From assembly GCA_000002435.2 (NCBI GenBank), contig CM018791.1: a DNA stretch of 64,000 nt. One strand, 5' to 3'. Below the pieces are notes generated by a model, which did not search any database, was not told the origin of the DNA, and saw only the letters and a program-made list of their open reading frames with translations. Below, piece after piece: positions 3,588-59,150 of this stretch; position 1 is the first letter of the stretch, and every line of letters begins with the position of its first letter. A program made the translations under genes and the position numbers. This stretch comes from Giardia intestinalis. Its lineage: Eukaryota.

Positions 3588-3741
3588 TTCACTTTTCTAT
3601 TTCTCATCTATCGCAATAAATTTGAATCAATTATTAAAATCAATTTCCATTGTAATTACTAATTGCAATTCAAATATGGATGACCAACCGACTTCCATTC
3701 CATCTTACACTTTTTTATGATTTCTGGTTTTTCATTTCTGC

Positions 3742-5751
3742 ATGTCTATGCCGCCTGGCATTGCTGACCTGGATGAAAGCGTAGACGCGCCGCTTAGCCA
3801 CGCTACGGATCAGGATGCTGCATCTGGTATCAAGCTGGACGATAGGGCTGAAGAAGAGCAGCTTAGTCGGTCAGATCCACCCACAATGGAGCCTGCCCCC
3901 CCGGCGGGTTCTGGTAGTAGAACAGGTACACCTGTTGATGCGGCTGTCTATGATAAGATGACTGTACGATCGGCTCAGCCTTCTTTCGAGGAGGTTTCGG
4001 TGAATAAGAACACTTTGGTTAACCTGCTCCGAGCTCTTTCATATTCTTACAAATCTGCTGAGTCGCTCCGCCTAATAACTGGTCTTGTTGTGGAAGGCTT
4101 CCATCTTCAAGGGATACGACAGCTGAAGTCGAGCTCTTCAAAAGCTATTAGCCCCGAGATGCTTAAAGCGGTGTACGCAGATATAGGTGAGATGTCTATA
4201 TTACGACCCCCGCCACTGGTGGCAGAGCTCACTGCCTCTCGGAGGGAGGGGAAGCTATTAGACACACTCTATGAGCATATCCTGACAAGCTACCTTGAGC
4301 TGCTTCAGCAAATAAGTTGCTTCAAGAATGCACGCGAAGATATCCTGTTAACCCTTGGGAAGTCCGCAGATATAAATCTAGAAACTCCAATAGAAGAGAT
4401 TGCAGACGAAATTATAAAATTAAAAGGCCTTCCAGACTACAGCGATGGCAAATTCATTCTCGTGGGACCTTCTGCAGTTAGTGCACTGGATATTGTCAGG
4501 AAAAGCGATAACCTAACTGACGCGCAGCATGAAAATGAGATGCTCCGCGCGACCATTGATTCATTGAGGAAGGAATTGTCGGAGTCTGCTAACGCTGCGA
4601 CCCTAATGCGAAGGGAGACTGCAAATGGCACGATGGAGGCAGAAAAACTTAAGGTAGAGTTAGAGAAGCTTCGGGCGCAGAACCAGCGCCTAAAGCATGT
4701 GGCAGACGACGCAAAGGCAGAGACAGCGGCAACACGCACAAGCAACGCAGCACTGCGCCAGCAGCTCGAGGCTTTGAAGACAACAAGTACTACTGTTGCT
4801 GGGGAACCTTCTAAATCGAATCAAAGCACAGCAAAGCCCCGTAGTAAGTCAGCACGCGATGCTAATGACCTCCTTACGACTGCTGACCTGAGCCACACTG
4901 GAACAGGATATACAGGACCACCATCTCATGCAGCAGCTCGGCAACACAGGCCTTCGCGACCAGCAAGTGCGACACAGCAGCGTATCCTTTCTGGAAAGGT
5001 CGCTCCGGCGCGTGTAGAAATAAATAACTCAAGCTACTACGCCATACACGGGCAGAACGGAGAGGTGAACAACACTGGAATACCCACAACAACGGCACGT
5101 GTCGTGAAGAGAAGTGTGGCTGTCACAGACAATTGCCTAGTGTGCATCGGTCCGCGGCACTCTTCTCCGTCAGCTAGGTCAAAAAGCCCACAGAGATACA
5201 TACAAGACATGAAAGCTACTAGTCCTGAAGTTCGCAAACTTGCTTCGGTCCCTGGTAACACTCGCATCGGCAAAAATAATCAGTTGTGCAGCTCGTACTA
5301 CGAGTCGCAGAGGGCAGTGACACCTAATAAGAAGTCAACCCAGGCTGGTCCCGTGTCCAAAACTACACCAAGGAGACCAACTAGTTCACGGCCACAGGTC
5401 TCATCAGCAAGAACGCCTGTAGCTAAGACACCGTCACGTGATCAGCACTATTCTCAGACGACCCATAGCAAGGGCGCTACGAAAATGTATACATCCGTTA
5501 TGCCCTTGGACGGCACCAGAACTCCCCGCAGCAAAACACCGGTAGATGACCTGTACAACCAAATAGACCGTCTCTCTGTTGAGCTGGCAGCAGAAAAGGA
5601 AAAAAGACATGTTCTTCTGGACGAAAATAGAAACCTGAAAAGCACTCTAACATCAATGGAGCGTCAAACTAGGCAGCAAATGAACAACATTGAATCCAAG
5701 TATCGTGCTATTCTGGAGCACACTATAAAGAAGCTGACAAATCGTGCATAG
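3742..5751 (+). CDS. hypothetical coiled-coil protein with a Ser/Thr/Pro-rich central region
   Basis: 669-aa ORF with an ATG start. It contains heptad-like segments (LRAQNQRLKHVADDAKAETAA...; C-terminal LSVELAAEKEKRHVLLDENRNLKSTL) and a low-complexity S/T/P/R-rich middle. AGTAAAT lies 28 bp after the stop. Confidence 0.55.
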   Translation: MSMPPGIADLDESVDAPLSHATDQDAASGIKLDDRAEEEQLSRSDPPTMEPAPPAGSGSRTGTPVDAAVYDKMTVRSAQPSFEEVSVNKNTLVNLLRALSYSYKSAESLRLITGLVVEGFHLQGIRQLKSSSSKAISPEMLKAVYADIGEMSILRPPPLVAELTASRREGKLLDTLYEHILTSYLELLQQISCFKNAREDILLTLGKSADINLETPIEEIADEIIKLKGLPDYSDGKFILVGPSAVSALDIVRKSDNLTDAQHENEMLRATIDSLRKELSESANAATLMRRETANGTMEAEKLKVELEKLRAQNQRLKHVADDAKAETAATRTSNAALRQQLEALKTTSTTVAGEPSKSNQSTAKPRSKSARDANDLLTTADLSHTGTGYTGPPSHAAARQHRPSRPASATQQRILSGKVAPARVEINNSSYYAIHGQNGEVNNTGIPTTTARVVKRSVAVTDNCLVCIGPRHSSPSARSKSPQRYIQDMKATSPEVRKLASVPGNTRIGKNNQLCSSYYESQRAVTPNKKSTQAGPVSKTTPRRPTSSRPQVSSARTPVAKTPSRDQHYSQTTHSKGATKMYTSVMPLDGTRTPRSKTPVDDLYNQIDRLSVELAAEKEKRHVLLDENRNLKSTLTSMERQTRQQMNNIESKYRAILEHTIKKLTNRA

Positions 5752-5778
5752 GGCGTTCAAATTTCCCCTGTCAGCCGA

Positions 5779-5785
5779 AGTAAAT
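5779..5785 (+). promoter_or_regulatory. putative poly(A) signal AGTAAAT (AGTRAAY class)
   Basis: Heptamer 28 nt downstream of the stop of the 3742..5751 gene. The same heptamer class recurs after several other genes in this window. Confidence 0.4.
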
Positions 5786-5811
5786 GGTTCTTACAATTTA
5801 AATAGAATTTC

Positions 5812-7491
5812 ATGTCTGCTATCCACGCCCTGAACCAGAAGGCTGAGCATCTCCGCCGCGGGGAGGCGCTTGATATGAACATTGACGCCGCAGAGAAGCT
5901 AACAAAGCTTATTCGCACTAATTTTGGGCCCGCAGGAACGTATAAGATGCTTGTCTCTGGAGCCGGGGACATTAAGATAACCAAGGATGGAGCTGTCCTC
6001 TTGAGCGAGCTTCCAATTAACCACCCCATCGCTGCGTTCATAGCTACGGCGGCAACAGCCCAGGATGACATTGTTGGCGATGGCACGACAACAATGGTTC
6101 TCCTCGTCGGGGAGCTTCTCCGTCAAGCTGCCAGATGGTTAGCAGAAGATGTGCACCCACGTGTGCTGGTGGATGGCTTTGAACTGGCGAAAGCAAGGGT
6201 AATTAGCTTCTTGGACAGTTACAAACAGCCCCTGCCCACTGAGGAACGTGCTCGCTATGACACTCTCCGCTCAATTGCTCATACCTCTCTCGTGACTAAG
6301 GTGCATGCGGACCTGGCAAATCTCCTCTCGGATATTGTCACTGAGGCTGTTCTGATCGTTGAGAAGGCTGCAGAATCCAAGGAGCAGTCCTTTATCGACC
6401 TACACATGGTTGAGCTCATGCTAATGCCTAGCCGCCTAGATGTGGACACCACTTTGATCAAGGGACTTGTCATGGATCACGGTAGCCGCCAATCTGAGCT
6501 CACCTGTGCAACCATGAGGAGCTGCTTTATTCTGACGCTTAACGTGTCTCTTGAGTATGAGAAGGCAGAGGCAAACACGGGATTTTTCTACAAGAACGCC
6601 GAGGAGATGCAAGAGCTAGCCAAGAAGGAAAGAGACTATGTAGACAACAAGTGCCGTAAGATCATCCAGTTGAAGGAGCAAGCGTTTGCTTCATATAGGG
6701 AAACTCATGGGGCCGATGCAGAGTGCAATTTTGTGGTCCTCAACCAAAAAGGCATAGATGGCGTCTCCTTGGACATGCTTGCTGCAAATGGAATATTTGC
6801 CCTTCGCAGAGTGAAGCGTCGCAATATGGAGCGGATTACGCTCTGCTGCGGTGGTTCTGCAGTCTGCGCCCTGGATGAGTTGAAGGTTTCTGACCTTGGT
6901 TGGGCCGATAAAATCCATGAGGAGATGCTTGGTGAGGAAAAGTATACATTTATCGAAGACATTCTTGATCCCAAATCGTGTACAATACTGATTCGAGGAC
7001 CAACAAGGCATACTCTCGAGCAGATCAAGGATGCCGTGCGTGATGGCCTTCGTGCAGTCAAGAACGCTATAACAGATAAGCACTATGTCGCCGGCGCCGC
7101 TGCTTTCGAAGTGGCTGCCGCTGCAGACCTGGAGGCCTATGCAAAGACTGTCACTGGGAAAACCAAGCTTGGGATCCAAGCCTTCGCAGATGCAATCTGT
7201 GCCATTCCTAAGACACTTGCAAAGAGCGCTGGGCTCGATCCCCAAGAGTGCTGCATTGCTGTAAGTGAGGCAGCCACAGGGTCATCAATCAATTATGGGA
7301 TCTGCCTCAAGACTGGAAAACCGTGTGACGCTGTGGCCAGCGGGATTCTGGACAATGTTTGTGTGAAGCATCAGCTCTACCACTCTTCAACAGTCATAAC
7401 GACCCAACTCCTTTTGACCGATGAGATTCTAAAAGCAGGGCGCAGCCTGAAAACAGACAATGCAGTAGATGACGCTGTGCCAGACGAGTAA
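5812..7491 (+). CDS. CCT6: T-complex protein 1 (CCT/TRiC) subunit zeta
   Basis: Strong TCP-1 family signatures (NFGPAGTYKMLVSGAGDIKITKDGAVLL, ATAQDDIVGDGTTTMVLLVGELL, NVSLEYEKAEANTGFFYKNAEE, LRRVKRRNMERITL, IQAFADAICAIPKTLA). It aligns along its length with CCT zeta as I remember it. ATG at 5812 is preceded by an A/T-rich tract. Confidence 0.88.
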   Translation: MSAIHALNQKAEHLRRGEALDMNIDAAEKLTKLIRTNFGPAGTYKMLVSGAGDIKITKDGAVLLSELPINHPIAAFIATAATAQDDIVGDGTTTMVLLVGELLRQAARWLAEDVHPRVLVDGFELAKARVISFLDSYKQPLPTEERARYDTLRSIAHTSLVTKVHADLANLLSDIVTEAVLIVEKAAESKEQSFIDLHMVELMLMPSRLDVDTTLIKGLVMDHGSRQSELTCATMRSCFILTLNVSLEYEKAEANTGFFYKNAEEMQELAKKERDYVDNKCRKIIQLKEQAFASYRETHGADAECNFVVLNQKGIDGVSLDMLAANGIFALRRVKRRNMERITLCCGGSAVCALDELKVSDLGWADKIHEEMLGEEKYTFIEDILDPKSCTILIRGPTRHTLEQIKDAVRDGLRAVKNAITDKHYVAGAAAFEVAAAADLEAYAKTVTGKTKLGIQAFADAICAIPKTLAKSAGLDPQECCIAVSEAATGSSINYGICLKTGKPCDAVASGILDNVCVKHQLYHSSTVITTQLLLTDEILKAGRSLKTDNAVDDAVPDE

Positions 7492-7493
7492 AT
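7487..7493 (+). promoter_or_regulatory. putative poly(A) signal AGTAAAT overlapping the CCT zeta stop codon
   Basis: In gacgAGTAAATcag the TAA stop (7489..7491) is embedded in the AGTRAAY heptamer. Confidence 0.45.
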
Positions 7494-7570
7494 CAGTTCC
7501 CAGATACCACGTTCTGAGCAATGTAACACAGTGTAGCACGGTACAAAAAAGTCTGGTGCCTTTGCAGGGG

Positions 7571-9190
7571 ATGAGTACAGAGACCACGCCTCCTACATCT
7601 TGGGGGGATTCGCCAGTGAGTCTCTTGAGCATAATACCCTCTTATAACGATCAATCTACAGCTGGTGAGCAGAATCCCTCCTCATACACTCAAGTTGAAA
7701 CCTTTTCGTCTACTGACGTGGGCGTGGGAACGCGGCGGTTAAAGTCCCGAGACGTTCAGGTCAAGATAGTCGAACCCACGCTCTCTTTAGGAAAGACCAA
7801 GGAGTCTCCGGAGAATAGGGAAGAGACAGATTTTGATAAAGATGCTGTTCTGCTCCTGCTGAACAAACTGTATAATCTTCTTGTTTCAACTGCGAATGAG
7901 CGAGCTATGATAACGAACTTCCTGGTTAGCAAACGTTATGAACGAGGGATCGAGGTGTGTGGGAACACCTATAGTTTGGAGGCCCTTTCAAAAACGTTGC
8001 TGAATAGGGAAGCTAGCATATACTGTCACTATTGCTATGGAAAGCTATTTCTGTTTGGCGAGAAGCTCAACATCCTCTCCTCTTTCTGGTCCACGGGCCC
8101 TTCAACAGCGGGGGCTCTAGCCACCTTTACAGCCTCTGACATCATTCCCTTTAATTCTACCGACTATGTCACAGCCGTTGTCCCACATCCCTCGCTTTCA
8201 AACAAGCTTGCAGTAGGAACCATCAAGGGCACTGTCTCGATCCTGACACTAAACTTCACAGAGCGCACCATCAGCGTTATATCTGCAATAAATAAGGATA
8301 TCTCCCATACTGGGCGCATCGTCTTCATTCAATGGTTTAATATGAACCAACTACTTGGCATCATAACTGCCGGCACTGATGGTAGAATACTTGTCTGGGA
8401 AGTGGCGCGCAGCGACCCCAATGAGAGCGGCTTCCTGCGCCTCTGCTCAGGGGTGGGCTTCCTGATCCGGCCCAAGAACGTGACAACGGGCAGCAGCCTC
8501 AGCAAATCACAAATTTACAAAAGCATCTCCTCTGTGCAGTTGCTTCAAGGCTTAAGTACGCCTAAGTCCCTTGGTTTCATTGTTGCATTTGATGGTGGGG
8601 TAGTACAGGAGGTCTCGTTCTTTCTGAAGCCAGCGACGGCCCCGAAGTTCTACGAGGATCTGCTAGACACACACAAGACTGGCCTAAAGACCCTTCGGCA
8701 GTATAGTCTCATGCCAGGGACACGCTCTGTGCAGGGCCTTCCGCAGACCCTCCTGAAATCAGTGACCAACAAGGCGCAGCTTATCTACCTCAGCACATGC
8801 CGATTGATACTTCAAGGCAATGGGTCTCTTATTATGTCAGAGCTGCAATCTAATACAGCGATCCAGAAGCTTATCTTTAAATCAGAGCATCCCCTAACAG
8901 ATTTCATTGTGTTTGACAAGACAATCATAGCAATAGATATACATGGTAGCGTGTCTGTGTTTTCCTTTTTAGCCGACGATGTCGTAGTGCTTCCTGTAGC
9001 TCATGCAAAGTACTCAATCTCTGCCCAGGACTGGGCCATCACGCTCTGCAGCTACCAGATGGAGCGTTCTGCGATCATCTTAGCTAAGTGCAGAAAGGAG
9101 GCTCGTGTACTAGAAGTCCCGTTGATCAATTCTATACTCACCGACGAGCGCTACATGGCTCGATTGTACATGCATACCTTCTCTCCATAA
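7571..9190 (+). CDS. hypothetical protein (possible beta-propeller/WD-like)
   Basis: The track ORF starts at 7469, overlapping the CCT 3' end. The first ATG that clears the CCT gene and has an A-rich context (acaaaaaag...gggATG) is at 7571. Weak WD-like strings (GRILVWEV, DGGVVQEV). No confident family assignment. Confidence 0.5.
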   Translation: MSTETTPPTSWGDSPVSLLSIIPSYNDQSTAGEQNPSSYTQVETFSSTDVGVGTRRLKSRDVQVKIVEPTLSLGKTKESPENREETDFDKDAVLLLLNKLYNLLVSTANERAMITNFLVSKRYERGIEVCGNTYSLEALSKTLLNREASIYCHYCYGKLFLFGEKLNILSSFWSTGPSTAGALATFTASDIIPFNSTDYVTAVVPHPSLSNKLAVGTIKGTVSILTLNFTERTISVISAINKDISHTGRIVFIQWFNMNQLLGIITAGTDGRILVWEVARSDPNESGFLRLCSGVGFLIRPKNVTTGSSLSKSQIYKSISSVQLLQGLSTPKSLGFIVAFDGGVVQEVSFFLKPATAPKFYEDLLDTHKTGLKTLRQYSLMPGTRSVQGLPQTLLKSVTNKAQLIYLSTCRLILQGNGSLIMSELQSNTAIQKLIFKSEHPLTDFIVFDKTIIAIDIHGSVSVFSFLADDVVVLPVAHAKYSISAQDWAITLCSYQMERSAIILAKCRKEARVLEVPLINSILTDERYMARLYMHTFSP

Positions 9191-9261
9191 AAGATAGTAA
9201 GCTGTGCAGCTCGTAAAGCAAGCTGCTCCTCCTGGATTCTGCTCCATATTCATATAGATAT

Positions 9262-12200
9262 CTATTCTTGTGTCAGCTTCACACACATTGCACGTAGCTT
9301 ACTAACTTCCAGCTCCCGTGCCGCAAGCAGCCTGTTACGCTTTTCAAGCTCAAGCTTTAATGTTTCTATCTTGTATTCATAAGACTTGGCTTTGTTCTCC
9401 AAGAATGCGAGCTTGTCCCTGATATCTTTATTTTCTTTTGTCAATAGCAAAAGCTTCTTATTGAGCGTCTCATTCTGGTTGTATGCTCGCCCAAGCTGAG
9501 CATCCTTGGTTGCTGCATCGATGTGGAGCTTCGAAACAGTCTCTTTCATCTCGTTGTTTTCGCTGACCAGCGACGCCGTTTTCCCTAGCGCATCTCCTTT
9601 AATGGCCATCAGATTATCGAGGTCTGTCTTCAGTCGTAGGTTTTCGTTAATCAAATTAACCACGTTATCACCCCTGTAATTGTCCTTCACCTCTTCTATG
9701 AATTTCATCATGCGATCGTTTTGGAATATCAGCTCCTGTATCCGCAACTGCTTATCTTCCACGTCCTGTGTCTGGTTCGTGTACTTGGCAGAAAGGTGAT
9801 CAAATTCCTGCTGAAGCTTTCGCAGAGCGTCTCCGTCAGTTCCCTTGTCCAGCCGGAGATTTTCGTTCTCCTTTCGAAGATAGTCTAGTTCGCCGCTAAG
9901 GACTTCAGATGACTTAATGAGCTTTGCGTTCTCTGCCTCCAGACTGTCCTGCCTAAGTTTGCTTGTCTCGTAGTTCAACTTCAGCTCGGCGATGGTGCTC
10001 TGCGTCTTCAAATAGGTATTATGAAGGTCGATCCTCTGGTTTTCTGTGTCCTCCAACATCTTTTTCTGATCAGTGTACAGAAGCTCATGATAGGATATCT
10101 TTTCCTTGGCAATGGCCACTTGATTTATTAGATGCTCCTTTTCCGTCGTTATAGCAGCGTTTTCCTTACGGACAGAGGAAAGCTCCTCCTTAAGCTCTGC
10201 AATTTGCTGCCTAAGTTCTGATTTGTCGCTCTCAAGTTGCTGCACCCGATCGTTGAGAGCAGCAACCGTTACAATCCTCTGCTGGTTGTCTAAAGAGTTG
10301 ACCGTGACGTCATGGAACATATCTGCTTTTTCTTTCATTTCCTGCCGTAAATTGCTCAGTTCCTGCTTGTACAGCTCCAGCTGCTGCTCCAGATTGTTAA
10401 TTCTGGCTTCTTTATAGTTAAAATCGGCGGATATCGCCTCGAACTCCTCTTTCATCCTGTTATACTCGACCTTAAACTCTTTGAGCTCGCCTTCTCGCGT
10501 CTTCAAGGTGCCTTTTAATGTTTTGCCGATTTCTTGCATTTTCTCCAACTTTGCAGCAGTTTCCTTTAACTCTGTCGTGACTCGCAGCTTGTCTTCTCGA
10601 AGCCTTCGGACCCGTTCTCTCAGACGAATCAGTGCACCAAGCTTGTCCTCTGTGGTCATCAAGCTAACCTCAAGACGGTAGATAAACTTTTCGCGCTCAA
10701 TAACCAGTGCTTGGTTGATAGAGGTAAGTTTCGAAACGCGCTTTTCAAGCTTCTCAACAGCATCTGACCTATCGCGCACCTGCAGCCCTCGTTCAGCCAG
10801 CTGCTCGTTGAGAGTGTTAATCATATCGCGCATTTTTTCTACTTGTCCTTCCCGTGTGTACGTGTCAAGCTGATCCTTAAATTCACGGGCTTTTTCGACA
10901 GACTTGTTTATGCGTTGCTCTTTCTGGGCCAATTCGTCGTGTAGTGTTCTTATTTTTTCTTCAAGAAGCAGCTTCTCCGCTTTGACTGAGCTAAGTTCTT
11001 TGTCTAGCTCCTTGATCTTGTCCTGCAAACCTATGCTTTGTGTTTCCAAGGCTGTCTTTTCAGCAACCACCTTTTGCAAGTCAAAGTCTAGCATGCCGTG
11101 CATACCAAGGATCTTCTCGGCCTCTTCGCTGACCACACGAAGCTTTTCTGTCAATGCTTGATTTTCCTGGTTGAGCGTTTCCGTTGTTTCCTCATACCCC
11201 TGGATGAGAGTTTGAGCTGTCTGCATTTCTTGCAGAGTGGCAGCTCTCTCTTCATATATGTCTCTATAGATTACCTCTTTTAGATGGTTGAATCCTGCGC
11301 GCCACGCATCTGTGGAGTAAAGCAGGTCGAAAGAAAGATTAACGAAGTAGCTATCCTGCTGAAAGATTTTATAGATTTTGCTCAGTTCTGGGTTGCCACG
11401 AAGGTCCTCGAGAACCGGGTTTTTGTGCCCAAGGACCTTAGCCTGAGATGAGGTCATACTGGGCATCTTCATTTCTTCAGGCTTGGCCAGAACTATCGGC
11501 ACAGATGAGTTTGGTGAGTGCTCAGCCAACGCAACAGGCAGCCCGGGGAACTGAAGGCTAAGAGGGTCATCCGTGACCGTTTGGTTGAGCTCCATCATGG
11601 CTGACCTTTGAGGTGAGCCCTGCCGGCTTTCTCGTCTACTGACACTGTTACTTATGGAGGGAACCAGGCTGAAACGCGGAGCCGTCTGCTTGACCTGCGT
11701 TTGATAGCGAAGAAGCTCTGCAAGTGCAAGAACGTGTTCCGGGGTACCTGTGTTTGCTTGAACTCCAAAATCGGCAACCTTACGGCCATCGCCTACTCTA
11801 TACTCTCCGTCTTCACAGCTGGAATAGCTACCAGTGCTGAGTAAATCCTCATCCAACGTATTATCACGCTTACGTATAATGCTTTCCACAGTACTATAGC
11901 CTCCTGCGGGAATAACGCCCTTAGAGCTAGTGAGTTTTTCTTTATATTTAGACTGACACTCTTCCGTGTTTCTTGTGAGCGCTCTTTGGGGGCGCGGACT
12001 AAATTCTTGATCTGTGTACTCACTGTACTCGTAAGTATCACTAGAATCGTACTGGGAAGTAGTGTCATAAGCCCTTCTACGAGACTGCTCTAGGTATTGC
12101 AGATTTTCCTGTGGAGGGGGGCATGAACGTGTGGAGACTGGACGCGAGAGGCTCTGCCTCTTAGTGCGTTTTCTACTGCGTTTTGCCGGAACAGAAGTAA

Positions 12201-53350: not shown

Positions 53351-54496
53351 ATGTCAGCTAAAGAATTTATGATTACATGGTCTATAGACTCTATCTATGT
53401 GGTGCTACTCCTAAGAACACTGATACCGTATACATGTTTGTTTCTGAGTAGCCTAATCCCCCCGCACATACCAGTCTACGATAAGCGGATGGGTGTTATT
53501 CGCGTCTTTCTATCGTGGGATGTCGAATGGTTTCTAAGGATAGCGGGCGGCGGCTATAGCACGGAAGCTCGTCTTGCATTCTTCCCTGCCTTGCCCTTCT
53601 TGCTTCGTGAGATTGGCATCAAGGGTGTCCTCGCATTGAACGGAGTGCTACGGATCATAAATGCAGTACTCCAGATTAAGTTATGCTGGCACCTGAATCG
53701 ATTGGCTGGAGAAGCTTTCACACCGCAAACTATAAGGAAGCTCCACTTCCTCCTCATTTTTTCACCAATAGCTGTGTTTGAAACAGTTCCATACACAGAA
53801 ACCCTGTTTGGATGTCTGAGCGTAATGTTTCTTTTAGTGTACAGCTCCATGACTCTTTACAATAAAAAGGTACAGGTACTTGGTTATGTTGCGCTTGTAC
53901 TGATAGGCATGCTGATGGGACTGGTTAGAAATACAGCCGTATTTCATGCAGGATACTTTATGTTTGGTGTAATTTTCTTGTCCAGGCCCATAGGAGAGCT
54001 TATCCTTAGTGGGTATTATTTTCTATCCGTTCTTCTTCCGCTGAAAAGAAGATTGGAGCAGTATTATGAAATGTGTATACCCTTGAAGAATGTCTCTAAA
54101 ATCTACTCGAATATTCAGAATAAGTACTGGGGTGTTGGTCTCTTTAACTACTGGAAAATCACAAATCTTCCACGGTTTTTGCTTGTCCTTCCATCAACAT
54201 TTCTGTGTCTGAGTTATATGTTTACAGAAAGCAAGAAATGGATACATAGCGTCTGCCGAGAACGCAATGTATTCCCGAGGCTTACATCCTTTAAGTTTGC
54301 GGTTGCTACTCATGCTTTCGTATTGACAAGTATAGTAGTTTTTTTGGCCAATGTGGAAATCCTACCGCGAATTCTGCTTTCTTCGTGCCCTAGCATCCTA
54401 GCTCATGTTCCCTTTAACCGTAGCACTATCTATATGGTTGTTCTCGTTTCCACGCTCGGGGCGGGGCTCTTCGGGGCGTTCCTTCCCTGGACGTAG
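53351..54496 (+). CDS. PIGV: GPI mannosyltransferase 2 (PIG-V/Gpi18 family), multi-pass membrane protein
   Basis: LSWDVEWFLRIAGGGYSTEARLAFFPALPFL matches the PIG-V signature region (human ...[30 protein letters not shown]...). The extreme C-terminus GAFLPWT matches the human PIG-V C-terminus (...NFLPWT). There are multiple hydrophobic helices. The start could be 53351 or the ATG at 53369. Confidence 0.75.
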   Translation: MSAKEFMITWSIDSIYVVLLLRTLIPYTCLFLSSLIPPHIPVYDKRMGVIRVFLSWDVEWFLRIAGGGYSTEARLAFFPALPFLLREIGIKGVLALNGVLRIINAVLQIKLCWHLNRLAGEAFTPQTIRKLHFLLIFSPIAVFETVPYTETLFGCLSVMFLLVYSSMTLYNKKVQVLGYVALVLIGMLMGLVRNTAVFHAGYFMFGVIFLSRPIGELILSGYYFLSVLLPLKRRLEQYYEMCIPLKNVSKIYSNIQNKYWGVGLFNYWKITNLPRFLLVLPSTFLCLSYMFTESKKWIHSVCRERNVFPRLTSFKFAVATHAFVLTSIVVFLANVEILPRILLSSCPSILAHVPFNRSTIYMVVLVSTLGAGLFGAFLPWT

Positions 54497-54497
54497 G

Positions 54498-54511
54498 GCG
54501 CAGATTTGGGC
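54498..54511 (+). promoter_or_regulatory. histone promoter motif GCGCAGATTTGGGC (H4 copy 1)
   Basis: 34 to 47 bp upstream of the H4 ATG at 54545. It directly follows the PIG-V-like stop codon. Confidence 0.6.
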
Positions 54512-54544
54512 TAAAAAAGAAGACGCGGGAAGGGGCAAATAAAA

Positions 54545-54844
54545 ATGTCTGGCAAGGGTAAGGGTAAGGGCTACGGCAAGTCGAAGCGCCACTCGAAGGA
54601 GAAGGACACGCTCGGGGGCATCACGAAGCCCGCCATCCGCCGTCTGGCGCGCCGTGGAGGTGTGAAGCGCATCTCCTCGACGATCTACCAGCAGACCCGC
54701 GAGGTCCTCAAGGCGTTCCTCGAGGTCGTTCTCCGCGACTCCCTCACATACACAGAACACGGCCAGCGCAAGACGGTCACGTCCCAGGACGTCGTCTACG
54801 CTCTCAAGCGCCAGGGCCGCACACTCTATGGATTCGGGATCTAA
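54545..54844 (+). CDS. H4: histone H4 (copy 1)
   Basis: [20 protein letters not shown]...[30 protein letters not shown] gives unambiguous H4 core sequence, divergent in the N-terminal tail. ATG is at 54545 after caaataaaa. Confidence 0.92.
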
Positions 54845-57487
54845 TTATAGTAAACAGTCTGTCTCCCCGTAGCTTCTGTAGTCGCACCCGCTGGGGTCAA
54901 GGACGTCTCCTTCGAGTGGGCAGAGGATCCTGATGGCGGGTGTGTGTCCCCGGCTCGCCGCATACATCAAAGCGCAGCGCCCTGCTGCATCAATTGCTCC
55001 GTGCTCCAGAGGGGCAAGCACATGCACAGATGCCATCTGGCCACAGAGGACGGCCTCGATCAGCGCTGTCCGGCCACGGTTGTTCCGGAGCCCTGCTTCA
55101 ACGGTGACGAGCTGGCAGACCGCAGCCGTGGCGCCCACGACCGCGGCGCACATGAGGGCTGTCCACCCCTCTACCGTTTGAGCGCGGGCCTCGTAAAGAA
55201 GGAGCGCCTCAACACCCTCCACGTAGTTTGAGGCGGCGGCCACCATCAGGGCCGTCTCGCCGCGCTTGTTCTGCAGCCGCGCTTCAGTCCTGAGAAGACT
55301 GAGAGCATCTGTAGCCCAGAACCGCGCCGCATAGATCAGGGCAGTGTCTCCATCGAAGTCCTGCCTGCCGTGCTGGAAGGGGAGAAGCCTATCGATGCAG
55401 CCAACGCGGTTGTTTGCCGCCGCAGCCATTAGAGCAGTGCGCCCCCGACTGTCTGCGATGTCCGCCTCTGCCCCCACGAGGAGGTTGAGGAGCTGATGCA
55501 TACCGCGTTGCGCCGCCAGGAAAAGAGCTGTGCAGCCTTGGGCGTCGCGGCCTCCGGCGTCTGTTCGCATCCGCTGGAGAACCATGGCCTCGTCGCACGA
55601 GAAGATTGCGTGCTGTAGAGGGCTGCGGCGGAGAGTGTTGTGGACCAGCTCAGACCGCAGCTTCTGACGGATACACGGATGTGTCGCAAGCATCGATAGA
55701 GCGGTGCGCGCCACAGGGTCCGGCTGGAGCATGCCAGCCAAGACTCCGTGCAGCTCGTCCGAGTACGACAGACCAAGAAAGTGGCCTCGGAGATGTGCCT
55801 GGGCGTCATCCAGTGTCGAGCAAGCAATGATATCTCCGCGGCAGAGGTGGCAAATTGTTTGTGCCAGCTCCCAAAGGTCTGCCCGGGAGCCTCCAACCCA
55901 TGACTGGGCGCTGCCAGGACGAAGTTCAGGTGCAGTGAAGGGATCCAGACCCTTGTCCAAAGCCAAGTGTCCGCAGCGAGATGGCTGCGTAAGCTTCTTG
56001 GCGAAGCGCAGAGCAGACCCTGTGTCAAGAAGGCGCAGATCCCCTTCCTGGGTCAAATAAAGCGCCCACGGGCGGATAGCATGGTGACAGAGGGGGCCGT
56101 CAGAGCGCGTCTGGAGCATGCAGAGCACATCGACAACGGCAATAAGTAGGCTCCAGACCTTCTGCTCACAGAGACCTCCCCTGTCCAGAGTTCCTACGAC
56201 GTCGCTGAGACGGTGAAGGGAAGCGGCCTCCACGGCCTCATAGGCGTAGGTGTTTAAGGAGCTGATCTTTCCAAAGGACAAGGGCACAATATATGGATGC
56301 GATATTGAAGCTAATTCTGCAAAATATTCAGTTATAGCATTCTGCAACACAGAGTCATCTCCGATACGATATACTTTGCAGAAAACACGGATACCTGTGC
56401 TACGATTTTTGAGAACAAAACCTTCACACATTCCGTTGAATCCACAGTGCGCTATGGGTAGGTAGTCTGGGAGATCCAAGAGTATGCTTTCTAGAGAGTT
56501 TTCAATTAGAGAAGATAATCCATCAGAACGGCCTGTCAGAGGCTTCTGCAACCAGGAAGGTAAAACAAGAGGCTGCGGTACATCGAGAGGAGGCTCTAAA
56601 AGAGATCCAATGGGTATAGAACGAAGAAGGGTGCGACTAGCAAAGGGAACTTTGGATAGAAGGTCACAAACTTTGGGATGCAAGAGAAGTTTGGTAGGAG
56701 TTGGCCTATCGGAGGGTCTGTATGCTAGGAGCTGTGCCACTAACGGCCGCAAAGTTAGGGGAACCTTCTCCACCAAAGTCGATGCACGCTTTGGTAAGGC
56801 GCTAGGACCAAGAGTTGAAAGAATGGCCGGAAGCACCTGTGATCTATCGTCTCCAAATGGATAGCTGCCATTACAGATTCTGTATAACAGACATCCGAGA
56901 GACCACATAACCGACTGTGTACTTCCTGGCCCCCCATGAAGAACTTCAGGACTTGAGCAGGGCCCGACAACAAGCGAGGATACACAGATGTTATCCCTAG
57001 GAGGTTCCAGGGCTACTCGAGGGTGTAAGAGAACCCGAAAAAGGTCAATCTCTTTATCGTATGAAAAATGCGCAGGGTCCAGCTCCTCGACCGGCAGGGT
57101 GTCGAAGAGAGCTGCAGGACAGAGAAACTCCTTATCAAGCTCACTATAGAGAGCAGCAACAGAAGCTATAAGTCTCCAACAAAGCCTCACACGCATGGAA
57201 ATGGACTGGTCTTTGGTGTCAGCAATTGGAGAATAGGGGAGTAGAAGCCGAAGCTGTATGACCTCTGGAACAGACTCTTCATTAATTGCATAATTCATTA
57301 CAAGCGGATGGATGGGCTTAGAGATGTATAATGTGAGCCGCTGTCTCCATGCGTCAATAGATCCTTGTGGTAAGCTCTGGAAGTGAATATTATGGATATC
57401 TTGCCCACAGAGGTCTGTATTCTTGCTAACAGTAAAGGTGACGCGCTGCATAGTATAAAGGTTGGGACAGTGAGAGTCTTCTGGCAT
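54845..57487 (-). CDS. kinase-like protein with degenerate catalytic motifs and C-terminal ankyrin repeats (NEK-like pseudokinase), possibly two tandem kinase-like regions
   Basis: The track start is a TTG at 57559. The first ATG is 57487 (MPEDSH...), with A-rich sequence just upstream. Residues around 370 to 630 have kinase-fold elements with degenerate catalytic motifs: GIRVFCKVYRI; HHAIRPWALYL in place of HRDLKPEN; LLDTGSA in place of DFG; FTAPELRP; ADLWELAQ. Residues around 150 to 300 carry a second C-lobe-like stretch (SPEVLHGG...SVMWSLGCLLYRICNGSYPF). The C-terminal 300 aa are ankyrin repeats, and the 3' 963 bp lie inside the inverted repeat. Confidence 0.75.
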   Translation of the reverse strand: MPEDSHCPNLYTMQRVTFTVSKNTDLCGQDIHNIHFQSLPQGSIDAWRQRLTLYISKPIHPLVMNYAINEESVPEVIQLRLLLPYSPIADTKDQSISMRVRLCWRLIASVAALYSELDKEFLCPAALFDTLPVEELDPAHFSYDKEIDLFRVLLHPRVALEPPRDNICVSSLVVGPCSSPEVLHGGPGSTQSVMWSLGCLLYRICNGSYPFGDDRSQVLPAILSTLGPSALPKRASTLVEKVPLTLRPLVAQLLAYRPSDRPTPTKLLLHPKVCDLLSKVPFASRTLLRSIPIGSLLEPPLDVPQPLVLPSWLQKPLTGRSDGLSSLIENSLESILLDLPDYLPIAHCGFNGMCEGFVLKNRSTGIRVFCKVYRIGDDSVLQNAITEYFAELASISHPYIVPLSFGKISSLNTYAYEAVEAASLHRLSDVVGTLDRGGLCEQKVWSLLIAVVDVLCMLQTRSDGPLCHHAIRPWALYLTQEGDLRLLDTGSALRFAKKLTQPSRCGHLALDKGLDPFTAPELRPGSAQSWVGGSRADLWELAQTICHLCRGDIIACSTLDDAQAHLRGHFLGLSYSDELHGVLAGMLQPDPVARTALSMLATHPCIRQKLRSELVHNTLRRSPLQHAIFSCDEAMVLQRMRTDAGGRDAQGCTALFLAAQRGMHQLLNLLVGAEADIADSRGRTALMAAAANNRVGCIDRLLPFQHGRQDFDGDTALIYAARFWATDALSLLRTEARLQNKRGETALMVAAASNYVEGVEALLLYEARAQTVEGWTALMCAAVVGATAAVCQLVTVEAGLRNNRGRTALIEAVLCGQMASVHVLAPLEHGAIDAAGRCALMYAASRGHTPAIRILCPLEGDVLDPSGCDYRSYGETDCLL
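54849..54855 (+). promoter_or_regulatory. putative poly(A) signal AGTAAAC for H4 copy 1
   Basis: In TAAttatAGTAAACag the heptamer starts 5 nt after the H4 stop. It lies within the last codons of the convergent kinase gene on the opposite strand. Confidence 0.5.
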
Positions 57488-57789
57488 AAGGGGATTTTTG
57501 GCTCTTTCTACGCCATATGAGCATAATGTGTCCCTCACCAAGACACTAGTTAATTGCAACCGAGAGTCACCTTGTAAGATTCAGCAGCCCCTGGGGCAGT
57601 CAGGCTTTTCAAGAAAACGTTCCCTTGGGCTTTGATGGACCATGGCTAAGTCAGAGCAAAAGCGTAAGATAATAGCGTGTTTATCTCTCCAGCGGAAAGA
57701 CGCGTTGCACCATTGACGCCCAGGCACATCTCCGAGGCCACTTTCTTGGTCTGTCGTACTCGGACGAGCTGCACGGAGTCTTGGCTGGC

Positions 57790-58677
57790 ATGCTCCAGCC
57801 GGACCCTGTGGCGCGCACCGCTCTATCGATGCTTGCGACACATCCGTGTATCCGTCAGAAGCTGCGGTCTGAGCTGGTCCACAACACTCTCCGCCGCAGC
57901 CCTCTACAGCACGCAATCTTCTCGTGCGACGAGGCCATGGTTCTCCAGCGGATGCGAACAGACGCCGGAGGCCGCGACGCCCAAGGCTGCACAGCTCTTT
58001 TCCTGGCGGCGCAACGCGGTATGCATCAGCTCCTCAACCTCCTCGTGGGGGCAGAGGCGGACATCGCAGACAGTCGGGGGCGCACTGCTCTAATGGCTGC
58101 GGCGGCAAACAACCGCGTTGGCTGCATCGATAGGCTTCTCCCCTTCCAGCACGGCAGGCAGGACTTCGATGGAGACACTGCCCTGATCTATGCGGCGCGG
58201 TTCTGGGCTACAGATGCTCTCAGTCTTCTCAGGACTGAAGCGCGGCTGCAGAACAAGCGCGGCGAGACGGCCCTGATGGTGGCCGCCGCCTCAAACTACG
58301 TGGAGGGTGTTGAGGCGCTCCTTCTTTACGAGGCCCGCGCTCAAACGGTAGAGGGGTGGACAGCCCTCATGTGCGCCGCGGTCGTGGGCGCCACGGCTGC
58401 GGTCTGCCAGCTCGTCACCGTTGAAGCAGGGCTCCGGAACAACCGTGGCCGGACAGCGCTGATCGAGGCCGTCCTCTGTGGCCAGATGGCATCTGTGCAT
58501 GTGCTTGCCCCTCTGGAGCACGGAGCAATTGATGCAGCAGGGCGCTGCGCTTTGATGTATGCGGCGAGCCGGGGACACACACCCGCCATCAGGATCCTCT
58601 GCCCACTCGAAGGAGACGTCCTTGACCCCAGCGGGTGCGACTACAGAAGCTACGGGGAGACAGACTGTTTACTATAA
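57790..58677 (+). pseudogene. duplicated 3' fragment of the kinase/ankyrin gene, forming a free-standing 296-aa ankyrin-repeat ORF (possibly expressed; status unknown)
   Basis: The translation is identical to the C-terminal 296 aa of the 54845..57487 protein (MLQPDPVARTALSMLATHPCIRQKL...GETDCLL). The kinase-like N-terminal two-thirds are absent. The repeat boundary lies 76 bp upstream of this ATG, and the track ORF begins at a TTG at 57781. Confidence 0.55.
58667..58673 (-). promoter_or_regulatory. putative poly(A) signal AGTAAAC for H4 copy 2
   Basis: Mirror image of 54849..54855 within the repeat. Confidence 0.5.
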
Positions 58678-58977
58678 TTAGATCCCGAATCCATAGAGTG
58701 TGCGGCCCTGGCGCTTGAGAGCGTAGACGACGTCCTGGGACGTGACCGTCTTGCGCTGGCCGTGTTCTGTGTATGTGAGGGAGTCGCGGAGAACGACCTC
58801 GAGGAACGCCTTGAGGACCTCGCGGGTCTGCTGGTAGATCGTCGAGGAGATGCGCTTCACACCTCCACGGCGCGCCAGACGGCGGATGGCGGGCTTCGTG
58901 ATGCCCCCGAGCGTGTCCTTCTCCTTCGAGTGGCGCTTCGACTTGCCGTAGCCCTTACCCTTACCCTTGCCAGACAT
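58678..58977 (-). CDS. H4: histone H4 (copy 2, identical protein to copy 1)
   Basis: 99-aa translation identical to 54545..54844. It lies in the right repeat arm in inverted orientation. Confidence 0.92.
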
Positions 58978-59010
58978 TTTTATTTGCCCCTTCCCGCGTC
59001 TTCTTTTTTA

Positions 59011-59024
59011 GCCCAAATCTGCGC
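59011..59024 (-). promoter_or_regulatory. histone promoter motif (GCGCAGATTTGGGC on the minus strand) for H4 copy 2
   Basis: Mirror image of 54498..54511 within the repeat arm. Confidence 0.6.
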
Positions 59025-59150
59025 CCTACGTCCAGGGAAGGAACGCCCCGAAGAGCCCCGCCCCGAGCGTGGAAACAAAGACACCACTGAGTAAAACCTT
59101 GCTTTGTCAGTTTTGACTCTCAATAGCAAGAATTTGCAGGCTAAAATTAA

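What the first reader, a model, noticed from the sequence alone, without database searches (positions are those of the whole stretch)
57714..58677. Gene-fragment birth: a free-standing ankyrin-repeat ORF created by the duplication
The right repeat arm contains an intact 296-aa ORF (ATG at 57790) identical to the ankyrin-repeat C-terminus of the adjacent kinase gene, detached from the kinase-like regions. Diplomonad genomes are rich in stand-alone ankyrin-repeat proteins and NEK kinase/ankyrin fusions, and this locus looks like a snapshot of how such domain shuffling happens. Whether it is expressed is unknown: only 76 bp of repeat sequence precede the ATG, then unique sequence, and the local A-richness is weak (ggagtcttggctggcATG). 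It ends stop-to-stop against H4 copy 2, exactly as the full-length gene ends against H4 copy 1.
Basis: partly seen in the sequence, partly recalled or inferred. Interest (0 to 1): 0.5.

Follow-up and report, generated by a model that had tools for sequence, protein, structure and literature searches.

The report
Truncated kinase copy beside duplicated histone H4
The free-standing ankyrin ORF is real, but it is most likely a promoterless leftover of a second kinase gene copy, carried in an old inverted duplication of the Giardia histone H4 gene and kept letter-perfect by gene conversion, not a newly born gene.

Summary
The window is Giardia intestinalis WB. Two perfectly identical inverted arms (54446-55808 and 57714-59076, 1363 nt) flank a 1905-nt spacer. 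Each arm carries the H4 promoter (99 nt), H4 (300 nt) and the last 964 nt of the dead, dual-kinase Nek GL50803_115786. The right arm gives a 295-aa ORF (not 296) from ATG 57790.

The "birth snapshot" reading is weak.
- Both H4 flanks occur in assemblages A, B and E, so the duplication is old.
- WB and DHA2 share the inner breakpoint and differ at 13 arm sites. At all 13, both arms of a genome carry the same base, which indicates concerted evolution. ORF intactness therefore says nothing about function.
- In one assemblage B isolate the repeat unit appears to hold the whole Nek. In P15 only 38 nt of Nek tail remain beside H4 copy 2. The fragment looks like a truncation remnant.
- The ATG has 0 A in positions -12..-1, the poorest start context of 21 long ORFs in the window.
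- A poly(A)+ RNA-seq contig crosses the unique junction, so some RNA exists, but its strand is unknown.

The DHA2 assembly has the spacer flipped. Verdict: an ordinary passenger fragment, with a modestly interesting palindrome history.

The parts
54446..55808 (.). Left arm of the inverted duplication (1363 nt, perfect copy). It holds the H4 5' flank, H4 and the last 964 nt of the Nek gene.
57714..59076 (.). Right arm, the exact reverse complement of the left arm.
55809..57713 (.). Unique 1905-nt spacer: Nek codons 1-560 plus 226 nt upstream of its ATG. It lies in the opposite orientation in the DHA2 assembly.
54845..57487 (-). Full-length Nek GL50803_115786 (880 aa; KAE8303350/XP_001704708.2). 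Catalytically dead, dual kinase-like domains, 7 TALM-type ankyrin repeats.
57790..58677 (+). The fragment ORF, 295 aa plus stop. It equals Nek residues 586-880: the tail of kinase domain 2, a linker and the ankyrin repeats.
57488..57713 (.). Nek upstream region ('U1'), which becomes the 5' flank of the fragment. It holds A/T-rich patches at 57545-57559, 57606-57617 and 57664-57675, and small out-of-frame uORFs (ATG 57635, 57642). Homology with P15 ends at its distal end, 57713.
57670..57675 (+). Two in-frame stop codons (taa tag) that close the fragment's reading frame upstream. 13 unique codons plus 25 repeat codons without a start follow before ATG 57790.
54545..54844 (+). Histone H4 copy 1 (99 aa).
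58678..58977 (-). Histone H4 copy 2 (99 aa), identical to copy 1.
54446..54544 (+). 99-nt H4 5' flank inside the arm, with the him motif GGGCGCAGATTTGG at 54496-54509 (mirror copy at 59013-59026). Positions 54446-54496 are also the last 16 codons plus stop of the PIG-V gene.
54849..54855 (+). AGTAAAC poly(A) signal of H4 copy 1, lying inside the Nek coding tail. The mirror copy for H4 copy 2 is at 58667-58673 on the minus strand.

Best explanation
The locus is a small palindrome. An inverted duplication centred on histone H4 took along the 3' part of the convergent neighbour, the dead dual-kinase Nek GL50803_115786.

The 295-aa ORF is the surviving tail of the second Nek copy. It has lost its first 560 codons and its promoter. 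It is fused to the far end of the 226-nt upstream region of the intact copy.

The duplication is old: it predates the split of assemblages A, B and E. The fragment most likely arose by truncation of a once longer or complete second copy, not by a recent partial duplication.

Recurrent arm-to-arm gene conversion with the intact gene keeps the fragment 100% identical and therefore open. The same recombination can also flip the spacer. No selection on the fragment itself is needed.

The ORF lacks the A-rich initiator that Giardia genes carry at the start codon. It is therefore probably not translated efficiently. RNA over the junction is most simply leaky, bidirectional or read-through transcription.

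Shown: the anatomy, the independent support for the junction, concerted evolution, presence across assemblages and the poor start context.
Inferred: the truncation history, the lack of protein product and spacer flipping.
For: Anatomy:
- Perfect 1363-nt arms plus a 1905-nt spacer.
- Each arm carries a complete H4 unit. It has the 99-nt flank including the 50-bp minimal promoter and him motif defined experimentally by Yee 2007, the CDS, and the AGTAAAC poly(A) signal 5 nt past the stop, which lies inside the Nek tail.

The junction is real:
- It is in four SRA-derived contigs.
- It is in DHA2 with the same inner breakpoint.

Concerted evolution:
- WB and DHA2 differ at 13 sites within the arm. 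At every one, both arms of a genome carry the same base.
- With independent evolution about 13 or more arm-to-arm differences would be expected in WB; 0 are seen. A Poisson estimate gives P about 2e-6 (my calculation).

The duplication is old:
- H4 with the PIG-V flank and H4 with the SmD3/12163 flank both occur in B (L022, L018, L033; L005, L009) and E (L011).
- The outer boundary lies 84-100 nt upstream of H4 in all of them.

Truncation history:
- In B isolate SRR3177862, a 3759-nt de Bruijn contig spans 86 nt of H4 flank, H4, the whole Nek and 730 nt upstream without branching. It overlaps the SmD3-flank contig by exactly k-1 = 30 nt.
- In another B sample the same stretch continues into PIG-V. 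The GS and GS_B assemblies place the same 4.2 kb next to opposite flanks.
- In P15, H4 copy 2 retains only 38 nt of Nek tail. WB-P15 homology upstream of Nek stops exactly at 57713.

Poor start:
- 0 A and 4 A+T in positions -12..-1. This is the lowest of 21 first ATGs of long ORFs in the window, and matched by only 5% of internal ATGs.
- The nearest A/T-rich patch is 115-125 nt upstream.
- Yee 2007 mapped histone TSSs 1-27 nt upstream of the ATG.

Duplications of one-gene size and inverted gene pairs are common in this assembly (Xu 2020).
Against: - The ORF is the first ATG after in-frame stops, and no other ATG lies between 57645 and 57790. Any plus-strand transcript starting in that interval would present it as the first AUG.
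- A poly(A)+ RNA-seq assembly (SRR2642201) is continuous across the unique junction.
- Annotators called the ORF as a gene in DHA2 (298 aa). By accession arithmetic it is probably also called in WB: KAE8303351/352 lie between the Nek and SmD3.
- The assemblage B 'two complete copies' inference rests on graph topology of short-read contigs, not on a spanning read.
- The P15 and GS contigs are old 454 assemblies.
- Arm identity in DHA2 could be partly an assembly consensus effect. The WB argument does not depend on it.
Confidence: 0.68

Rival explanations
1. Functional new gene. The fragment is expressed from cryptic or bidirectional promoter activity of the Nek upstream region. It makes a stand-alone TALM-ankyrin protein like Protein 21.1, for instance one that competes with the full-length Nek for ankyrin-mediated partners.
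For: - The ORF is intact, with seven Pfam ankyrin hits.
- ATG 57790 is the first ATG downstream of 57645.
- RNA coverage crosses the junction in poly(A)+ RNA-seq.
- Giardia promoters are reported as bidirectional, and A+T-rich stretches act as cryptic promoters (Franzen 2013 citing Teodorovic 2007).
- Manning 2011 proposes that Neks and 21.1 proteins form one family differing by the kinase domain.
Against: - There is no A-rich initiator at the ATG. The leader would be 115 nt or longer, against the 1-27 nt mapped for histone genes.
- Intactness is fully explained by gene conversion.
- The fragment is not conserved beside H4 copy 2 in P15.
- One arm carries a 17-nt frameshifting duplication in DHA2.
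- RNA-seq assemblies of Giardia join many genes into contigs of 10 kb or more (L029), so junction coverage is not specific.
Confidence: 0.12
2. Recent partial duplication specific to assemblage A. A 1363-nt piece (H4 plus the Nek tail) was copied in inverted orientation a short time ago, and the arms are identical simply because they are young.
For: 100% identity of the arms in WB. A compact structure is seen only in A1 and A2.
Against: - The same breakpoints occur in WB and DHA2, yet there are 13 lineage-specific differences shared by both arms. Homogenisation after the A1/A2 split is therefore required.
- Two H4 copies with the same two flanks occur in B and E.
- A Nek-tail remnant sits beside H4 copy 2 in P15.
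Confidence: 0.1
3. Assembly artefact. The right arm is a mis-joined or duplicated contig end and there is no second copy.
For: - Yee 2007 themselves worried that one of three H4 copies at contig ends in the 2007 assembly was an artefact.
- Only two copies are in this window.
Against: - The unique junction 57713|57714 is present in four independent read sets and in DHA2.
- Short-read contigs break exactly at the arm boundaries, as expected for a true repeat (L025, L026).
- Both outer flanks are linked to H4 in many samples.
Confidence: 0.02
4. RNA-level role. Read-through across both arms yields a 1.36-kb hairpin RNA that feeds the Giardia Dicer/Argonaute pathway and tunes H4 or Nek expression. 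On this reading the ORF is irrelevant.
For: - Perfect inverted arms only 1.9 kb apart.
- Pervasive read-through and overlapping convergent transcripts in Giardia: 81% of tail-to-tail pairs overlap (Franzen 2013).
- RNA is continuous from the spacer into the right arm.
Against: - No direct evidence exists.
- H4 has a consensus poly(A) signal 5 nt after its stop.
- H4 is constitutively and highly expressed, which argues against silencing.
Confidence: 0.05

Closest known systems
Giardia Protein 21.1 / TALM-ankyrin proteins (Manning et al. 2011, PMC3218828)
   Same: An array of TALM-type ankyrin repeats (RTALMAAA, ETALMVAA, WTALMCAA, RCALMYAA) with no N-terminal kinase domain. It is derived from a Nek, as that paper proposes for the family.
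   Different: It has no promoter or initiator of its own. It is 100% identical to a parent gene tail, is not conserved as an independent gene in P15, and has no demonstrated product.
Nek pseudogenes and fragmentary Nek gene models of Giardia WB (Manning 2011 reports 30 kinase pseudogenes; 'Kinase, NEK-frag' labels occur in the literature)
   Same: A truncated copy of a Nek family member produced by local duplication and loss.
   Different: Those pseudogenes are mostly from the fast-turnover GL4 subfamily and carry disruptions. This one derives from a stable 1:1:1 'Nek-Unclassified' gene, and conversion keeps it undamaged.
Duplicated histone H4 genes of G. intestinalis (Yee et al. 2007, PMC1872034)
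   Same: This is the same locus: tail-to-tail H4 copies, 99 bp of identical 5' flank, a him-containing 50-bp promoter, and gene duplication or conversion proposed as the cause.
   Different: That paper reported three copies and only 124 bp of identical 3' flank. It did not note that the repeat extends 964 nt into the neighbouring Nek and creates an ORF.
Inverted duplicated gene pairs in the WB long-read assembly (Xu et al. 2020, PMC7000408: 19 VSP pairs, 12 of them convergent; 6.9% of the genome duplicated)
   Same: A short, usually one-gene, local inverted duplication with identical copies.
   Different: The cargo is a housekeeping histone gene, and the by-product is a partial copy of a non-VSP neighbour.
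Large palindromes with arm-to-arm gene conversion and spacer inversion, such as the human Y-chromosome palindromes or plastid inverted repeats (from my own knowledge, not tested here)
   Same: The arms are more alike within a genome than orthologous arms are between lineages. The spacer is found in both orientations in different assemblies.
   Different: The scale is 1.4-kb arms. Spacer flipping is not yet proven with spanning reads.

Membership tests
Protein 21.1 / stand-alone TALM-ankyrin protein gene | Array of TALM-type ankyrin repeats | tested here: met
   Pfam Ank_2/Ank/Ank_3/Ank_4/Ank_5 hits over residues ~65-295. TALM-like motifs are visible in the translation. The motif definition comes from Manning 2011.
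Protein 21.1 / stand-alone TALM-ankyrin protein gene | No N-terminal kinase domain | tested here: met
   No Pkinase hit in the 295-aa ORF. Only the last ~20 residues of kinase domain 2 remain.
Protein 21.1 / stand-alone TALM-ankyrin protein gene | Independent transcription unit with a Giardia-type A-rich initiator at or near the start codon | tested here: not met
   0 A in -12..-1, the lowest of 21 long-ORF starts in the window. The nearest A/T-rich patch is 115 nt or more upstream.
Protein 21.1 / stand-alone TALM-ankyrin protein gene | Evidence of an mRNA and a protein product | tested here: inconclusive
   A poly(A)+ RNA-seq contig, L004 (SRR2642201), crosses the junction, but its strand is unknown. 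No proteomic data could be examined.
Protein 21.1 / stand-alone TALM-ankyrin protein gene | Conservation as a separate gene in other assemblages | tested here: not met
   P15 has only a 38-nt remnant beside H4 copy 2. Assemblage B appears to have a full Nek copy instead.
Nek protein kinase | Kinase or kinase-like domain | tested here: not met
   The fragment starts at residue 586 of 880. Both kinase-like domains lie upstream.
Truncated paralogue in an inverted segmental duplication | Second copy identical to part of a neighbouring gene, in inverted orientation, lacking the parent's 5' part and promoter | tested here: met
Truncated paralogue in an inverted segmental duplication | Novel junction supported by independent sequence data | tested here: met
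   L001-L004 come from four SRA runs. The DHA2 assembly has it too.
Palindrome maintained by arm-to-arm gene conversion | Arms identical within a genome while orthologous arms differ between lineages that share the breakpoints | tested here: met
   13 of 13 WB/DHA2 differences are shared by both arms. The inner breakpoints are identical.
Palindrome maintained by arm-to-arm gene conversion | Spacer found in both orientations (a product of crossover between the arms) | tested here: inconclusive
   The DHA2 assembly has the spacer inverted relative to WB. The WB-type contig L001 links the fragment junction to the PIG-V flank. Neither rests on reads longer than the arm.

The most novel reading that the evidence does not exclude
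The locus is a flip-flop palindrome in which gene conversion from a functional parent keeps a promoterless gene tail perpetually intact. That would give Giardia a long-lived, undamaged 'pre-gene'. Leaky plus-strand transcription from the bidirectional Nek promoter could already translate it into a stand-alone TALM-ankyrin protein. This would be a concrete, still-connected intermediate between the Nek and Protein 21.1 families.
Probability: 0.1. Interest if true: 0.55.

Novelty: new member of a known kind. Interest (0 to 1): 0.27.

Why it matters
For evolutionary claims, an intact ORF inside a homogenised repeat cannot be read as evidence of function or of recent origin.

For Giardia workers the practical points are these:
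- Reads, probes, tags, morpholinos or CRISPR guides aimed at the C-terminal third of Nek GL50803_115786, or at H4, hit two places.
- The orientation of the 1.9-kb spacer may differ between lines.
- Expression values for the Nek tail are confounded by multi-mapping.

The locus also gives a clean, small example of concerted evolution in an organism with very low allelic heterozygosity. It has a possible series of states: whole Nek duplicated in B, 964 nt in A, 38 nt in E. That series documents how a duplicate decays. If the fragment did prove to be translated, it would be a rare still-linked intermediate between Neks and Protein 21.1 proteins.

Tried and rejected
- The search for homologous proteins with the 295-aa ORF returned nothing at E<=1e-30, although the parent is in the database. 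Ankyrin words probably saturated the candidate list. It is uninformative.
- Exact look-ups of the 295-aa ORF, five shorter Met-start versions, the 298-aa TTG version, the DHA2 version and the GS 241-aa call were all 'not in the collection'. Some of these are called genes on indexed contigs, so absence there says nothing about annotation.
- The WB GenBank chromosome is not in the contig index. The WB annotation of the fragment could only be inferred from accession order.
- A paper search for '115786' gave only irrelevant hits. ORF numbers 12168-12173 are absent from the kinome supplement. SRA-prefix searches identified only SRR2642201 and SRR3177862.
- I tested whether P15's sequence beyond the Nek upstream region matches assemblage B's upstream region, which would support the deletion model. 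There was no detectable similarity. Even the 226-nt proximal region is unalignable between A/E and B, so the test is inconclusive.
- I considered that contig L001, which links the fragment junction through the arm to the PIG-V flank, proves a flipped isomer in a WB-type line. I rejected it as proof, because a k=31 graph walk through a 1363-nt exact repeat is arbitrary.

Full report
**Identity of the window.** Exact-sequence look-ups place the region in Giardia intestinalis WB, assemblage A1. The genes, in order:
- Nek 652 aa (KAE8303347)
- GPI mannosyltransferase PIG-V (GL50803_12174)
- histone H4
- Nek 880 aa (KAE8303350 / XP_001704708.2)
- SmD3 (KAE8303353)
- GL50803_12163

Sequence matches in Additional file 1 of Manning et al. 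2011 identify the 880-aa gene as GL50803_115786. [quoted passage not shown]

**Checking the observation.**
- The repeat finder reports one inverted pair in the whole window. Base-by-base comparison shows the perfect arms are 54446-55808 and 57714-59076 (1363 nt). The 7 further bases in the tool's arms contain 3 mismatches.
- Each arm holds 99 nt of H4 5' flank, the 300-nt H4 CDS and 964 nt of 3' flank. That flank is the third base of codon 560, codons 561-880 and the stop of the Nek, on the opposite strand.
- The 1905-nt spacer is Nek codons 1-560 plus 226 nt upstream of its ATG (57487).
- In the right arm the Nek frame is open from 57676 to 58677. It is preceded by taa tag at 57670-57675, and its first ATG is at 57790. 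This gives 295 aa, not 296, identical to Nek residues 586-880.
- 76 nt of repeat precede the ATG, and the ORF abuts H4 copy 2 stop-to-stop.
- Pfam finds only ankyrin families in the ORF. Its first ~20 residues are still the end of kinase domain 2 as delimited by Manning et al..

**Artefact?** No.
- The unique junction 57713|57714 occurs at 100% identity in contigs from four separate SRA runs (L001-L004).
- It also occurs, with identical breakpoints, in the DHA2 (A2) GenBank assembly (L014).
- Other short-read contigs stop exactly at the inner arm boundary, as expected at a true repeat (L025, L026).
- Yee et al. 2007 described the tail-to-tail H4 genes and exactly 99 bp of identical 5' flank. 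They counted three copies at contig ends. This window holds two.

**What the duplicated unit is.** The arm carries a complete, experimentally defined H4 expression unit.
- The 50-bp minimal promoter with the him motif sits at 54496-54509 (consensus).
- The consensus poly(A) signal AGTAAAC lies 5 nt after the stop, already inside the Nek coding tail.
- The outer 51 nt of the arm are also the last 16 codons and stop of PIG-V.

H4 is thus the only complete gene in the arm, and the Nek tail is its 3' flank. Convergent Giardia genes usually overlap at the transcript level (81% of tail-to-tail pairs; Franzen 2013).

**Age and homogenisation.**
- WB and DHA2 differ at 13 positions inside the arm: 1 synonymous in H4, and 6 synonymous plus 6 non-synonymous in the Nek tail. 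At all 13, both arms of a genome carry the same base.
- The two lineages share the inner breakpoint, so the structure predates their split. Independent evolution of the arms would then predict about 13 arm-to-arm differences in WB, and none is seen. This is concerted evolution by gene conversion.
- It follows that the intact frame of the fragment is maintained by the selected full-length copy. It carries no information about the fragment's own function.
- The duplication is older than assemblage A. H4 next to PIG-V and H4 next to SmD3/12163 both exist in assemblage B (L022, L018, L033; L005, L006, L009) and in E/P15 (L011). The outer repeat boundary lies 84-100 nt upstream of H4 in each.
- G. 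muris has one H4 between the 12163-like/PheRS block and a dynein gene.

**How much Nek is in the repeat elsewhere.**
- Assemblage B isolate SRR3177862: a 3759-nt contig (L034) runs unbranched from 86 nt upstream of H4, through H4 and the entire Nek, to 730 nt upstream of the Nek.
  - Its last 30 nt (k-1) are the first 30 nt of the SmD3-flank contig from the same run (L009).
  - In sample DRR668197 the same stretch continues into PIG-V (L033).
- Two assemblies of isolate GS place the same 4.2 kb (99.86% identical) next to opposite flanks (L005 vs L022).
- The simplest reading is that in B the arms are about 3.7 kb and contain a complete Nek each. This rests on graph topology, not on spanning reads.
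- In P15 the Nek contig ends 50 nt past its stop (L032). H4 copy 2 is followed by only 38 nt of Nek tail and then a different ankyrin gene.
- WB-P15 homology upstream of the Nek covers all 226 nt and stops exactly at 57713.
- Together these suggest a series: whole Nek duplicated in B, 964 nt left in A, 38 nt left in E. On this view the WB fragment is a truncation remnant, not a freshly copied piece. The direction of change cannot be proven here, because non-coding sequence of B is unalignable with A/E.

**Spacer orientation.**
- In the DHA2 assembly the spacer is inverted. The full-length Nek ends against the SmD3-side H4 and the fragment lies next to the PIG-V-side H4.
- A WB-type contig (L001) likewise links the fragment junction through the arm to PIG-V.
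- The arms are identical, so both isomers contain one full gene and one fragment with the same junction sequences. Crossover between the arms would interconvert them.
- Neither observation rests on reads longer than the arm, so flipping is plausible but unproven.
- In DHA2 one arm carries a 17-nt tandem duplication that shifts the frame. In that assembly it falls in the full-length copy, annotated as 776 aa plus 133 aa. If the spacer orientation there is arbitrary, the frameshift may in fact lie in the fragment.

**Expression potential.**
- The 12 nt before ATG 57790 contain 0 A and 4 A+T. The other 20 long ORFs in the window have 1-10 A (mean of all 21 first ATGs about 4.9) and at least 6 A+T. 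Only 5% of 423 internal ATGs are as A-poor.
- The nearest A/T-rich patches on the plus strand are at 57664-57675 and 57606-57617, that is 115-184 nt upstream. Out-of-frame uORFs start at 57635 and 57642. No ATG lies between 57645 and 57790.
- Histone TSSs were mapped 1-27 nt from the ATG. Xu 2020 used the A-rich start motif as an annotation criterion.
- From my own knowledge, supported by the reference Yee 2007 cites (Li & Wang 2004), long leaders are translated poorly in Giardia.
- Against this, contig L004 derives from SRR2642201. Roy 2017 lists that run as an Ansell 2015 WB1B RNA-seq run. It used DNase-treated, oligo(dT)-selected RNA, with no strand labelling described. L004 is continuous over 56327-58863, across the unique junction.
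- RNA therefore covers the junction. However, Giardia RNA-seq assemblies routinely fuse many genes (L029 from the sister run is 11 kb). Bidirectional and cryptic promoters and read-through are well documented. Minus-strand read-through from the highly expressed H4 copy 2 would give the same contig.

**Annotation status.**
- The DHA2 record calls the ORF as 298 aa. The accession order ESU37201-37204 fits this.
- In WB two entries (KAE8303351, 352) lie between the Nek and SmD3. One must be H4 copy 2, and the other is probably this ORF. This is an inference, not a look-up.
- The UniRef100 entry of the Nek has n=2 members. That would fit a contained fragment.

**Conclusion.** The best-supported explanation is a passenger. 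It is a promoterless remnant of a second Nek copy inside an old H4-centred palindrome, kept identical by gene conversion, with no evidence of an independent product.

The general ideas are already in the literature: Nek and Protein 21.1 relatedness (Manning 2011), duplicated identical H4 genes explained by duplication or conversion (Yee 2007), and frequent short inverted duplications (Xu 2020). What is added here:
- the exact anatomy;
- the demonstration of concerted evolution;
- the apparent B/A/E truncation series;
- the possible spacer flip.

Noticed in passing
L014 (DHA2, AHGT01000031.1) 4993-9638 versus window 54446-59076: The 1905-nt spacer is in the opposite orientation in the A2 assembly. 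There the full-length Nek abuts the SmD3-side H4 and the fragment abuts the PIG-V-side H4. The WB-type contig L001 also joins the fragment junction to the PIG-V flank. This may be real flip-flop recombination or arbitrary repeat resolution.
   Followed up: partly
L014 ~8809-8825 (after the equivalent of window position 55258): One DHA2 arm carries a 17-nt tandem duplication (GCCGCGCTTGTTCTGCA). It shifts the frame of the ankyrin region and splits the annotated Nek into 776 aa plus 133 aa. It is absent from six WB-type contigs. Which copy truly carries it depends on the unresolved spacer orientation.
   Followed up: partly
window 54446-54496 and mirror 59026-59076: The last 16 codons and the stop of the PIG-V gene lie inside the repeat arm, so the right arm holds a 51-nt copy of the PIG-V 3' end. 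The H4 him motif starts at the last base of the PIG-V stop codon. This bears on which H4 copy is the original, but G. muris synteny points the other way.
   Followed up: partly
L034, L033, L009, L005, L022 (assemblage B): In assemblage B the repeat unit appears to be about 3.7 kb (H4, the whole Nek and 0.7 kb upstream). Two assemblies of isolate GS attach it to opposite flanks. Beyond it lie a VSP and another kinase that are not present at the WB locus.
   Followed up: partly
L011 1-570 and L032 8298 (P15, assemblage E): Beside H4 copy 2, P15 keeps only 38 nt of Nek tail, followed by the 3' end of an unrelated ankyrin gene. Upstream of the P15 Nek, homology with WB stops exactly at the WB fragment junction (57713). 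A flavohemoprotein gene lies 2.7 kb further on.
   Followed up: partly
window 54545-54844 and 58678-58977: Yee et al. 2007 reported three H4 copies within 8 kb, one of them at a contig end, with only 124 bp of shared 3' flank. This 64-kb window holds two copies 3.8 kb apart sharing 964 nt of 3' flank. The third copy may have been contig-end redundancy.
   Followed up: no
L005 1118-3814 (GS, ACGJ01001465.1): The GS 2009 record annotates only a 241-aa ankyrin ORF (3089-3814) where an 898-codon Nek frame is open. The P15 orthologue is annotated 'Protein 21.1'. Annotation of this gene family around the H4 locus is inconsistent between genomes.
   Followed up: no
L021 and L023 (G. muris CM016925.1, CM016926.1): The G. 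muris H4 gene sits in a segment of at least 6 kb (ankyrin ORF, PheRS, 12163-like, H4, adaptin-like). That segment appears with the same gene order on two different chromosomes.
   Followed up: no
window 56327-58863 (L004) and L029: Logan contigs from poly(A)+ RNA-seq runs of WB1B (SRR2642201, SRR2642205) are continuous across promoters and intergenic spacers, for up to 11 kb in L029. This illustrates how pervasive transcript coverage is in Giardia, and why contig continuity is weak evidence for a gene.
   Followed up: partly
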